Positions 1,934 through 2,529 of a DNA stretch of 22,078 nucleotides are shown here, piece after piece. The stretch is from Promethearchaeota archaeon (GTDB taxonomy: Archaea; Asgardarchaeota; Odinarchaeia; Odinarchaeales; JBHLKK01). The position numbers were made by a program, and so were the translations under genes. Numbering within the stretch: position 1 is the first letter of the stretch; each line of letters begins with the position of its first letter. The stretch spans positions 1 to 22,078 of the forward strand of contig JBHLPL010000023.1 in the NCBI GenBank assembly GCA_048939465.1, given 5' to 3'. The notes below the pieces were generated by a model, which did not search any database, was not told the DNA's origin, and worked only from the letters and a program-made list of their open reading frames with translations.

Positions 1934-2027
1934 TTCAACCCCTCTTGGCTTTGGCTTCAGCATCCTTTCCGAAGGATCCCGACTTTGTACATATTGATTA
2001 GAAAAGGATTTGGTGGGGTCGGTGGGA

Positions 2028-2053
2028 TTTTCCCCAAGCTGATTTTCCTTGGC
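2028..2053 (-). other. tRNA-Trp intron 3 (T-loop, position 59/60, 26 nt)
   Basis: The T stem is the outer helix. Central helix TTCA/GGAA pairs 3 of 4, bulges are AA^G and AA^T, and the inner helix is CCAAG/CTTGG. Removal restores the T-loop TTCAAAT. Confidence 0.85.
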
Positions 2054-2066
2054 TTTGAACCCACAA

Positions 2067-2096
2067 TTCGTCTTAGCAGACGATCCGGCTGTTAAT
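2067..2096 (-). other. tRNA-Trp intron 2 (variable loop, position 46/47, 30 nt)
   Basis: Bulge GG^A, central helix CGTT/GACG, bulge AA^T, inner helix TTA/TAA then CAG/CTG. Removal restores the 5-nt variable loop TGGTT, with U48 matching A15. Confidence 0.8.
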
Positions 2097-2105
2097 CCAA
2101 CGGGT

Positions 2106-2171
2106 TTCTTCGGAGTGGACCGCTCCAGAGGCTCTTCATCCGTTTGTCAGCAGATCTATTGCCTGGGACAT
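2106..2171 (-). other. tRNA-Trp intron 1 (canonical position 37/38, 66 nt), with C/D-box-like elements
   Basis: Lies between G37 (2172) and A38 (2105). Central helix CTCC/GAAG pairs 3 of 4, so the motif is a relaxed BHB/BHL. Contains CTGA, ATGAAGA, TCTGGAGC (antisense to the anticodon loop) and CCGA. Confidence 0.85.
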
Positions 2172-2233
2172 CTGGAGCCCGTCGTCCTACCTGATTAGAC
2201 CACGACCCCTTCAAGAACCTGTAAAATCTTGAA

Positions 2234-2344: not shown

Positions 2345-2496
2345 TGTGTGACACCGTTCCGTGTTCTAATGGGTACGGGTGTTTCCTCTCGCCTATGGCC
2401 GCCAGCGAACCAGCAGCATCTTGCTTTCCCACGGGCTCGCGCACCGTAGTACAGGTAAGATCGCTCGAGAGCTTAACTTTCACGCGATGTCACACA
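2345..2496 (-). repeat. Terminal inverted repeat forming the processing stem and BHB-like motif of the permuted 5S precursor
   Basis: TGTGTGACATCG (2496-2485) pairs with CGGTGTCACACA (2356-2345), 12 bp with one G-U. Then come the 3-nt bulge GAA (2359-2357), the 4-bp helix CGTG/CACG and the 3-nt AAA (2480-2478). The helix beyond AAA is imperfect (G.A mismatch, then T-A, T-G). Confidence 0.9.
2358..2478 (-). rRNA. rrf: 5S rRNA, circularly permuted gene (3' half 2478-2410, TTCG linker 2409-2406, 5' half 2405-2358)
   Basis: 2478-2410 reads AGTTAAGCTCTCGAGCGATCTTACCTGTACTACGGTGCGCGAGCCCGTGGGAAAGCAAGATGCTGCTGG, the 3' part of archaeal 5S. 2405-2358 reads CTGGCGGCCATAGGCGAGAGGAAACACCCGTACCCATTAGAACACGGA, the 5' part. 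Helices can form: I GCTGCTGG/CTGGCGGC, II CGAGAG/CTCTCG, IV CTACGG/CCGTGG capped by GCGA, V ATCTT/AAGAT, and III after ligation. Confidence 0.93.
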
Positions 2497-2519
2497 AGGA
2501 GTTTAAGAATTCTAAACAC

Positions 2520-2529
2520 TATATAAAAA
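2520..2529 (-). promoter_or_regulatory. TATA box of the permuted 5S rRNA gene
   Basis: TTTTTATATA about 24 nt upstream of the start of the terminal stem (2496). A T4 tract (CCTTTT) follows the 3' arm of the stem. Confidence 0.7.

What the first reader, a model, noticed from the sequence alone, without database searches (positions are those of the whole stretch)
2345..2529. Circularly permuted 5S rRNA gene with a BHB-like splicing motif
Seen in sequence: on the minus strand the 5S 3' half (2478-2410) precedes the 5' half (2405-2358), and the normal ends are fused by TTCG. The unit is clamped by a 12-bp stem (2496-2485/2356-2345), a GAA bulge, a perfect 4-bp helix CGTG/CACG and an AAA bulge. 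Established: archaeal EndA cuts BHB motifs after the second nt of each bulge, and RtcB ligates. Applying that rule gives ends ...CACGGA (2358) and AGTTAAG... (2478), which join into the conserved 5S sequence GAACACGGA|AGUUAAG. The junction falls between A52 and A53 (E. coli numbering), the bulge of helix III. The BHB helix uses C47-G50, so it is mutually exclusive with helix III and the precursor must refold after splicing. The gene has its own TATA box and a T-tract after the stem, which argues against an assembly artefact. Permuted tRNA genes are known (Thermofilum, Cyanidioschyzon), but I know of no genomically permuted 5S rRNA gene. Novelty is not verified.
Basis: partly seen in the sequence, partly recalled or inferred. 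Interest (0 to 1): 0.97.

Follow-up and report, generated by a model that had tools for sequence, protein, structure and literature searches.

The report
Circularly permuted 5S rRNA gene
This Asgard archaeon's only detectable 5S ribosomal RNA gene is written back half first, between flanks that form the cut-and-rejoin signal of the tRNA-splicing enzymes, so a normal 5S can only be rebuilt by cutting and joining, probably as a small RNA ring; most, but not all, Asgard lineages do the same, which explains their "missing" 5S genes.

Summary
On the minus strand, 2478-2410 is the 3' part of a 5S rRNA, 2409-2406 is a UUCG cap, and 2405-2358 is the 5' part. Rfam sees only two sub-threshold halves in swapped order. 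The re-rotated sequence gives one full-length 5S match (66.5 bits) and folds into the canonical three-arm shape. A 12-bp stem, a 4-bp helix and two 3-nt bulges form a bulge-helix-bulge (BHB) motif. Its standard cut sites release 121 nt whose ends rebuild the conserved GGAAGUUAAG sequence. The genome (91% complete) has no collinear 5S, but it has two EndA paralogs and two RtcB genes. Independent metagenome contigs support the gene order.

In 151 Asgard species genomes I found the permuted form in 85 (20 families, six closed genomes), with strong covariation in the stem. Another 48 genomes carry only a collinear 5S. These are three whole GTDB classes plus one family inside the Loki-type class.

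Cleavage, ligation and the circular end product are inferred. No RNA data could be obtained.

This scan has reported the same architecture many times on other Asgard DNA. I found no paper describing it in the held library. The closest precedent is the permuted, circular SRP RNA of Thermoproteus.

The parts
2520..2529 (-). TATA-like promoter box (TTTTTATATA), centred about 28 nt upstream of the outer stem
   Evidence: Read directly from the sequence. A comparable A/T box lies 25-45 nt upstream of the stem in the related loci I inspected.
2485..2496 (-). Leader strand of the 12-bp outer BHB helix
   Evidence: Pairs with 2345-2356. Pair probabilities are 0.42-0.999. All 10 aligned pairs covary in 18 sequences.
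2481..2484 (-). Leader strand (CGUG) of the 4-bp central BHB helix
   Evidence: Complementary to CACG 2360-2363. Across lineages the leader strand covaries with the 5S helix III strand, with 13 different pairings.
2478..2480 (-). 5' bulge AAA; the predicted cut is after the second A, so A2478 becomes the first residue of the excised RNA
   Evidence: Sequence. The cut position comes from the canonical EndA rule (established knowledge, applied).
2410..2478 (-). 5S rRNA 3' part: the second A of the helix III bulge, the 3' strands of helices III and II, helices V and IV, and the 3' strand of helix I
   Evidence: RF00001 partial hit; HMM positions 47-116; covariation in helices II, IV and V.
2406..2409 (-). 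UUCG tetraloop joining the native 3' and 5' ends (cap on helix I)
   Evidence: Sequence. In 77 unique related loci the cap is a 4-nt loop in 59, and is UUCG, UACG, UGCG or CUCG in 47.
2358..2405 (-). 5S rRNA 5' part: the 5' strands of helices I and II, the helix III hairpin with loop C, and the first A of the helix III bulge
   Evidence: RF00001 partial hit; HMM positions 3-50.
2360..2363 (-). CACG, the 5S-side strand of the central BHB helix; three of its four bases also belong to helix III of the mature fold
   Evidence: helix III pairs C28-G47 to U31-A44 in the rotated fold.
2357..2359 (-). 3' bulge GAA; the predicted cut is after GA, so A2358 becomes the last residue of the excised RNA
   Evidence: Sequence. 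The rule applied gives a 121-nt product with the junction CACGGA|AGUUAAG.
2345..2356 (-). Trailer strand of the outer BHB helix
2338..2341 (-). Short T-run (TTTT) just after the stem; a possible archaeal terminator
   Evidence: Sequence only. A run of four or more T's lies near the end of the model in 19 of 24 related loci. This is weak evidence.
2358..2478 (-). Predicted excised unit of 121 nt, equal to the whole 5S plus the UUCG cap; its ends would be joined by RtcB
   Evidence: Inference from the BHB rule. Two EndA paralogs and two RtcB genes are present in the genome.

Best explanation
The locus is the organism's working 5S rRNA gene, encoded in circularly permuted order.

It has its own TATA box. 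The primary transcript, roughly 2498 to 2338 on the minus strand, would run: leader, 5S 3' part, UUCG cap, 5S 5' part, trailer. Leader and trailer pair into a 12-bp helix. Four leader bases pair with CACG of the 5S. Together these form a bulge-helix-bulge motif.

The splicing endonuclease is an EndA alpha/beta pair here. It would cut after the second base of each 3-nt bulge and release a 121-nt RNA. RtcB would then join the two ends and recreate the conserved helix III sequence CACGGA|AGUUAAG. The RNA would refold into the normal three-arm 5S, with helix I closed by the UUCG loop. The product would therefore be a covalently closed ring, and I take that ring to be the form built into the ribosome.

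Shown: the gene order, 5S identity after rotation, the BHB geometry, conservation and covariation, the lack of another 5S gene, and the presence of the enzymes.

Inferred: transcription limits, cleavage, ligation, and that the ring is the final form. My odds for the last step alone are about 0.55-0.6.
For: - **Gene order.** The two 5S halves are in swapped order as read by Rfam. After rotation there is one full-length hit of 66.5 bits and a canonical fold.
- **No other 5S.** Nothing else is found in the 1.96-Mb, 91%-complete genome at E<=10. There is only one hit with the permuted model (155.4 bits).
- **Closed relatives.** Closed genomes G003, G017, G027, G029, G040 and G073 have only the permuted form.
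- **DNA support.** Contigs from runs of other studies span the locus unchanged.
- **Covariation.** 37 of 43 pairs have compensatory changes. The covariation score is 0.796 against 0.233 in shuffles, and 10 of 10 outer-stem pairs covary.
- **The cut rule works everywhere.** Applied to related loci, it rebuilds the 5S junction with the exact spacing of collinear Asgard 5S genes in three different registers. The central helix covaries with helix III (compared with the collinear sequences).
- **The cap looks selected.** It is a UNCG-type tetraloop in most lineages, which points to a retained structural cap rather than a discarded spacer.
- **Enzymes.** Two EndA-family ORFs (204 and 191 aa, each with PF01974 and PF02778) and two RtcB genes are present.
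- **Precedents.** The permuted SRP RNA of Thermoproteus is cut at a BHB and is functional as a circle (PMC4731332). E. coli lives with a 5S whose native ends are joined by a tetraloop (PMC7283268).
Against: - There is no RNA evidence of any kind for this organism.
- The inner flanking helix of a strict hBHBh' motif is not evident next to the AAA bulge, so the motif is of the relaxed type.
- The central 4-bp helix has only about 0.09 pair probability in the thermodynamic ensemble, because helix III competes with it.
- The terminator is only four T's.
- Nine percent of the genome is unassembled.
- A review-level statement in PMC12918454 says that archaeal 5S rRNAs, unlike 16S and 23S, are not processed through circles. 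That statement rests on species with collinear genes.
Confidence: 0.62

Rival explanations
1. EndA cuts the precursor but the ends are not joined. The ribosome would then carry a linear, permuted 5S with a nick in the helix III AA bulge and a capped helix I.
For: Everything that supports the BHB also fits this reading. A 5S that stays permuted in the final product exists in brown-algal mitochondria (PMC4267664). Exact restoration of the sequence does not by itself require a covalent join.
Against: EndA products (2',3'-cyclic phosphate and 5'-OH) are the natural substrates of RtcB, and excised BHB-flanked RNAs are generally found as circles in archaea (established knowledge; PMC4731332). The nick would lie in a universally conserved, protein-contacted element. 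Two RtcB genes are present.
Confidence: 0.18
2. The ring is only an intermediate. It is reopened at the UUCG cap to give a conventional linear 5S with native ends, as happens with permuted tRNA genes.
For: Permuted tRNA genes of Cyanidioschyzon and Thermofilum work this way (cited in PMC4267664). Circular pre-16S and pre-23S RNAs are reopened in several archaea.
Against: No nuclease is known that would trim a 4-nt loop to 5S ends; in tRNA this is done by RNase P and tRNase Z. The linker is under selection to be a hyper-stable UNCG-type tetraloop of exactly 4 nt in most lineages, and helix I is lengthened in some. That is what a permanent cap looks like, not a spacer.
Confidence: 0.1
3. The 5S is released by processing that does not use the BHB. 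For example, endo- or exonucleases trim back to the long stem, and the stem is only a processing or stability clamp.
For: The central helix is thermodynamically weak. About 29 of 77 related loci failed my strict BHB search.
Against: The 4-bp helix and the 3-nt bulges are conserved, and the helix covaries with helix III in 13 combinations. In three registers the canonical cut sites give exactly the 5S junction. Most of the failures are relaxed motifs or truncated flanks.
Confidence: 0.07
4. The locus is a dead, rearranged 5S pseudogene or an assembly artefact, and the real 5S lies in the unassembled 9% of the genome.
For: The genome is only 91% complete. rRNA genes are often missing from MAGs.
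Against: The same layout is present in six closed genomes that have no collinear 5S. All helices are kept by compensatory changes. Independent contigs from other studies agree. A co-occurring strain differs at six positions; by my reading, five of them keep or improve a pair (plus my reading).
Confidence: 0.02

Closest known systems
Permuted SRP RNA gene of Thermoproteus tenax / T. uzoniensis (Plagens et al. 2015, eLife, PMC4731332)
   Same: It is an essential structured RNA encoded in circularly permuted order. [quoted passage not shown] The circle is the functional molecule, and the gene was 'missing' to standard annotation.
   Different: It is a different RNA (SRP RNA, not rRNA). It occurs in a few species of one genus rather than most of a phylum-level group. 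For SRP RNA the circle was shown by RNA-seq and biochemistry; here nothing has been shown at the RNA level.
Circularly permuted tRNA genes (Cyanidioschyzon merolae nucleus; Thermofilum pendens), Soma et al. 2007 as cited in PMC4267664
   Same: The 3' half is encoded before the 5' half. Leader and trailer form a BHB, and the product passes through a circular RNA made by the splicing machinery.
   Different: In tRNA the linker between the native ends is removed by RNase P and tRNase Z, so the final RNA is linear. Here the linker is a conserved 4-nt UNCG-type tetraloop that looks like a permanent cap.
Permuted mitochondrial 5S rRNA of brown algae and other stramenopiles (Valach et al. 2014, PMC4267664)
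   Same: It is a 5S rRNA whose helix I is closed into a hairpin, with the ends lying elsewhere. This shows that a capped helix I is compatible with 5S function.
   Different: Only the alpha domain is rearranged, with the ends at the alpha/gamma junction. There is no BHB and no rejoining, so the product stays permuted and linear. It is organellar, not archaeal.
Circular pre-16S/23S intermediates and circular or permuted 23S rRNA of archaea (Birkedal et al. 2020, PMC7758197; Genome Biol 2026, PMC12918454)
   Same: rRNA is excised at BHB motifs in a processing stem by EndA and circularised by RtcB. In some lineages the circle or a permuted form is the mature rRNA.
   Different: Those genes are collinear, so the permutation or circle arises only at the RNA level. 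The literature states that 5S is not handled this way.
Engineered cp5S rRNA in E. coli (Huang et al. 2020, PMC7283268)
   Same: The native 5S ends are joined by a tetraloop and the molecule is opened elsewhere. The ribosomes are active and the cells viable.
   Different: It is artificial. The new ends are in loops C or D and are fused into 23S rRNA. It is neither a free RNA nor a ring.

Membership tests
5S rRNA (Rfam RF00001) | A full-length match of sequence and structure above the family threshold on the genomic sequence as it stands | tested here: not met
   There are only two partial hits, 23.2 and 20.0 bits, against a threshold of 38, and they are in swapped order.
5S rRNA (Rfam RF00001) | A full-length 5S sequence once the two parts are put in the conventional order | tested here: met
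   nhmmer with an HMM of nine collinear Asgard 5S genes gives one hit of 66.5 bits, E 4e-22, covering HMM positions 4-115. cmsearch with RF00001 itself could not be run on a constructed sequence.
5S rRNA (Rfam RF00001) | A three-way junction with helices I-V, supported by covariation | tested here: met
   The minimum-energy fold of the rotated RNA is the canonical shape. Helices I, II, IV and V each show compensatory changes, and helix III is nearly invariant.
Archaeal bulge-helix-bulge (hBHBh') substrate of the splicing endonuclease EndA | A 4-bp central helix flanked by two 3-nt bulges on opposite strands, each bulge lying 3' of its central-helix strand | tested here: met
   CGUG/CACG with bulges AAA and GAA. 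The same geometry occurs at the 5S junction in about 48 of 77 unique related loci, and the central helix covaries.
Archaeal bulge-helix-bulge (hBHBh') substrate of the splicing endonuclease EndA | Flanking helices of at least 2 bp on both sides (h and h') | tested here: inconclusive
   The outer helix has 12 bp. No convincing inner helix abuts the AAA bulge. GUU after the bulge pairs with AAC of the 5' part only in the mature 5S fold, so the motif is relaxed.
Archaeal bulge-helix-bulge (hBHBh') substrate of the splicing endonuclease EndA | Actual cleavage by the cognate endonuclease | not testable with these tools
   The genes for a catalytic-type and a second EndA paralog are present.
Permuted non-coding RNA genes expressed through a circular RNA (tRNA, SRP RNA) | The 3' part is encoded upstream of the 5' part, and the native ends are joined by a short linker | tested here: met
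Permuted non-coding RNA genes expressed through a circular RNA (tRNA, SRP RNA) | Leader and trailer form the BHB, and its cuts regenerate the uninterrupted RNA sequence | tested here: met
   The junction CACGGA|AGUUAAG has the spacing of collinear 5S genes.
Permuted non-coding RNA genes expressed through a circular RNA (tRNA, SRP RNA) | The circular or junction-spanning RNA is detected | not testable with these tools

The most novel reading that the evidence does not exclude
In most Asgard archaea the 5S rRNA inside the ribosome is a covalently closed ring of about 120 nt, made by the tRNA-splicing enzymes from a back-to-front gene. The gene has also switched between the permuted and collinear forms more than once during Asgard evolution. 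Three whole GTDB classes, and one family inside the Loki-type class that includes a closed 4.4-Mb genome with three tandem 5S genes, are collinear. Their sister lineages, including the Heimdall-type relatives of eukaryotes, are permuted.
Probability: 0.5. Interest if true: 0.9.

Novelty: new variant of a known kind. Interest (0 to 1): 0.85.

Why it matters
5S rRNA is a universal ribosome component. Its gene is assumed to be trivially recognisable, and its presence is a criterion for a "high-quality" genome.

A permuted gene that standard models cannot see explains why 5S genes "could not be predicted" in closed Heimdallarchaeum genomes (PMC8813620). Many Asgard MAGs are therefore under-annotated.

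If the product is a ring, it would be the first naturally circular 5S rRNA. It would also extend the moonlighting role of the tRNA-splicing machinery to a core ribosomal RNA in the closest archaeal relatives of eukaryotes.

The mixed distribution found here gives natural controls for experiments. It also raises a concrete evolutionary question: which state the archaeal ancestor of eukaryotes had, given that eukaryotic 5S genes are collinear.

Tried and rejected
- **Rfam and ARAGORN.** Rfam at gathering thresholds found nothing in the window. ARAGORN found no tRNA.
- **RNA runs.** None was listed for the 181-nt locus, and no holder on record as RNA was listed for the first 10 kb. This says nothing about expression. 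Reads were laid on four DNA runs, so junction reads could not be sought in cultured Asgard archaea.
- **RF00001 on the rotated sequence.** The tool only takes stored sources, so I used an nhmmer surrogate.
- **Promoter scan.** The sigma-70 promoter/terminator scan does not apply to archaea and was ignored.
- **TATA regex.** My regular expression was too strict and found 16 of 24. By eye nearly all loci have a TATA-like box.
- **Strict BHB finder.** It failed on about 29 of 77 loci with relaxed motifs, insertions or truncated flanks.
- **Cap parser.** It mis-trimmed about six sequences, so the tetraloop counts are lower bounds.
- **5S sequence identity.** The collinear Loki-class family is closest to permuted Loki-type 5S at 0.66-0.69 identity. 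This is too weak to decide the direction of change.
- **G110.** Its apparent collinear hit (38.4 bits) proved to be a short permuted copy at contig ends.
- **Literature.** Searches for 'permuted 5S', 'circular 5S' and related terms found only the organellar case and irrelevant plant papers.

Full report
**What is in the sequence**

Read on the minus strand, the locus has these parts in order:
- a TATA-like box, TTTTTATATA, at 2529-2520;
- a 12-nt leader strand at 2496-2485;
- CGUG at 2484-2481;
- AAA at 2480-2478;
- 69 nt that match the 3' part of 5S rRNA, at 2478-2410;
- UUCG at 2409-2406;
- 48 nt that match the 5' part, at 2405-2358, ending in CACG-GA;
- the trailer strand at 2356-2345, which pairs with the leader in 12 pairs (one G-U);
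- a TTTT run at 2341-2338.

**Is it a 5S gene?**

Rfam finds nothing at gathering thresholds. With permissive settings it finds two sub-threshold RF00001 hits. The upstream one (2408-2499, 20.0 bits) aligns to the 3' half of the model. The downstream one (2314-2406, 23.2 bits) aligns to the 5' half.

I built an HMM from nine collinear 5S genes of the same phylum. It gives two hits in swapped order on the native sequence: HMM positions 47-116 first, then 3-50, at 33.0 and 18.3 bits. On the re-rotated sequence it gives a single full-length hit of 66.5 bits, E 4e-22.

The rotated RNA folds into the textbook three-arm shape. The break lies between the two A's of the helix III bulge, which are Rfam model positions 50 and 51.

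**The processing motif**

The outer helix, the 4-bp CGUG/CACG helix and the two 3-nt bulges have the archaeal bulge-helix-bulge (BHB) geometry. Each bulge lies 3' of its central-helix strand.

The established rule is a cut after the second bulge nucleotide (from my knowledge of the EndA literature). Applying it releases 2478-2358, which is 121 nt, and the ends join as CACGGA|AGUUAAG.

Three of the four CACG bases are also helix III bases in the mature fold. Consistent with this, the central helix has only about 0.09 probability in the ensemble, whereas the outer stem is near 1. I see no convincing inner helix next to the AAA bulge, so the motif is of the relaxed kind.

**Is it the real gene, and is the DNA right?**

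The genome has 1.96 Mb in 152 contigs and is 91% complete. It has no other RF00001 hit at E<=10 and exactly one hit with my permuted model (155.4 bits).

Logan contigs from four runs of four studies (mangrove and sediment metagenomes) cover the locus collinearly. One of them is a 7.7-kb contig. One run also holds a second strain with six differences. By my reading, two of these turn G-U pairs of helix I into Watson-Crick pairs, three keep pairs in the other helices, and one lies in an unpaired stretch; the pattern matches the sister species G002.

The genome encodes two EndA-family proteins of 204 and 191 aa. Both carry PF02778 and PF01974. The first has the Tyr/His/Lys pattern of a catalytic subunit by my reading, and the second looks like a structural partner. 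The genome also encodes two RtcB genes.

**Relatives**

The same two-half pattern appears in the sister species and in Odinarchaeia-named genomes of the same GTDB order.

A permutation-specific DNA pattern found 20 Asgard records in about 186,000 species genomes. They were named Odin-, Jord-, Freya-, Atabey-, Baldr-, Njord-, Heimdall-archaeota and Asgardarchaeum. It also found five obviously random bacterial hits, about the number expected.

An 18-sequence MAFFT alignment gave a consensus of 43 pairs, 37 of them with compensatory changes. On that alignment:
- 92.4% of cells are paired, against 62.6% in shuffles and 36-46% when partners are slid;
- the covariation score is 0.796 against 0.233;
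- all ten aligned outer-stem pairs covary.

**Phylum survey**

A covariance model of the permuted precursor gave strong full-length hits in 85 of 151 species genomes, in 20 families. These include closed genomes G003, G017, G027, G029, G040 and G073.

RF00001 above threshold was found in 49 genomes. One of these, G110, is an artefact of a short permuted copy at contig ends. That leaves 48 genomes with only a collinear 5S. No family has both forms.

Centring on the collinear genomes shows where they belong:
- a class of 87 species, 78 with a collinear 5S;
- a class of 19 species, 17 collinear;
- a class of 6 species, 4 collinear;
- one family (f23) inside the large Loki-type class, whose other four families are permuted.

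In f23 a closed 4.4-Mb genome has three tandem collinear 5S genes with a 375-bp period, each with its own TATA box.

The collinear genes have no BHB flanks.

These results qualify earlier notes of this scan that every sampled Asgard lineage is permuted.

**What the comparison says about mechanism**

Among 77 unique permuted loci the cap on helix I is a 4-nt loop in at least 59. It is UUCG, UACG, UGCG or CUCG in at least 47, and some lineages lengthen helix I. That is the signature of a retained, stabilising cap rather than a spacer to be cut out.

A strict BHB at the 5S junction was found in about 48 of 77 loci, in three registers:
- CACG-GA|A in this genome and in the Odin, Jord, Baldr, Freya and Atabey types;
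- NNGG-AA|G in the Njord and Loki types;
- CCUG-AA|A in one Heimdall-type family.

In every register the canonical cuts give exactly the spacing of collinear 5S genes. The leader strand covaries with helix III in 13 combinations (collinear sequences).

Some loci carry extra BHB-like insertions. These lie at the 5' junction in Atabeyarchaeia, in loop C in several Loki-type genomes, and in the cap in one genome.

**Comparison with what is known**

- The closest precedent is the permuted SRP RNA gene of Thermoproteus. Its ends are processed at a BHB and ligated into a functional circle (PMC4731332).
- Permuted tRNA genes use the same route, but their linker is removed.
- Brown-algal mitochondrial 5S is structurally permuted without any rejoining (PMC4267664).
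- E. coli tolerates a 5S whose native ends are joined by a tetraloop (PMC7283268).
- Archaeal 16S and 23S are known to pass through, or remain as, circles, whereas 5S is stated not to (PMC12918454).
- Ten full-text searches found no description of a permuted or circular archaeal 5S.

Within this scan the architecture has been reported many times on other Asgard DNA. I verified it independently here. What I add is the collinear classes, the three BHB registers and the cap statistics.

**Verdict**

- I give about 0.97 that this is the functional, permuted 5S gene.
- I give about 0.8 that it is cut at the BHB and rejoined.
- I give about 0.55-0.6 that the ring is the mature ribosomal form.

No RNA-level evidence could be obtained, so these last steps remain inference.

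Noticed in passing
window 2011-2209, minus strand: A tRNA gene lies about 135 nt downstream of the 5S. It has its own TATA-like box near 2243 and ends in CCA. ARAGORN and Rfam both miss it. The sequence reads as tRNA-Trp (anticodon CCA) with three inserted segments. The largest, after the anticodon loop, has box C/D-like motifs and a stretch complementary to the anticodon loop, as in the known archaeal tRNA-Trp intron. In-silico removal of three segments gives ARAGORN tRNA-Trp calls. The same 5S-tRNA pairing is seen in Odinarchaeia loci.
   Followed up: partly
G238:C1:1399892-1400758 (L143, L145, L147): A closed 4.4-Mb genome of family f23, within the Loki-type class, carries three tandem collinear 5S genes with a 375-bp period, each with its own TATA box. 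All other families of that class have the permuted gene.
   Followed up: partly
G017/L045, L054, L137 (Atabeyarchaeia); L121-L123, L130, L134; L120: Some permuted 5S loci carry additional insertions. Atabeyarchaeia have a duplicated CGUG-AGA junction with a roughly 33-nt hairpin at the 5' cut site. Several Loki-type and other genomes have 30-45-nt insertions in loop C. One genome has a roughly 32-nt extension of the helix I cap. These look like nested BHB introns or expansion hairpins.
   Followed up: no
window 2359-2495, run X2: A second, co-occurring strain differs at six positions (2389, 2403, 2404, 2423, 2447, 2465). By my reading, five of the changes keep or improve a pair and one (2465) lies in an unpaired stretch, and they match the sister species G002.
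   Followed up: partly
G000:C31:2961-5708 (L034, L036): One of the two RtcB genes is a 973-aa open frame in which the RtcB domain is split by a long insert. The Pfam match covers positions 1-57 and 45-426 about 1.4 kb apart, which suggests an intein.
   Followed up: no
L046 (DXJA01000473.1, Candidatus Jordarchaeum madagascariense EB_bin_7): The species description lists a 5S rRNA gene as present (PMC9723677). The contig I retrieved holds the permuted form, so the published call may be a partial hit.
   Followed up: no
same genome, other contigs (scan notes): Earlier first-stage notes report many BHB-type introns inside protein-coding genes of this genome (ahcY, gatA, pyrG, eS30, elf1 and others). 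If real, this fits a very active, broad-specificity EndA/RtcB system. I did not check them.
   Followed up: no
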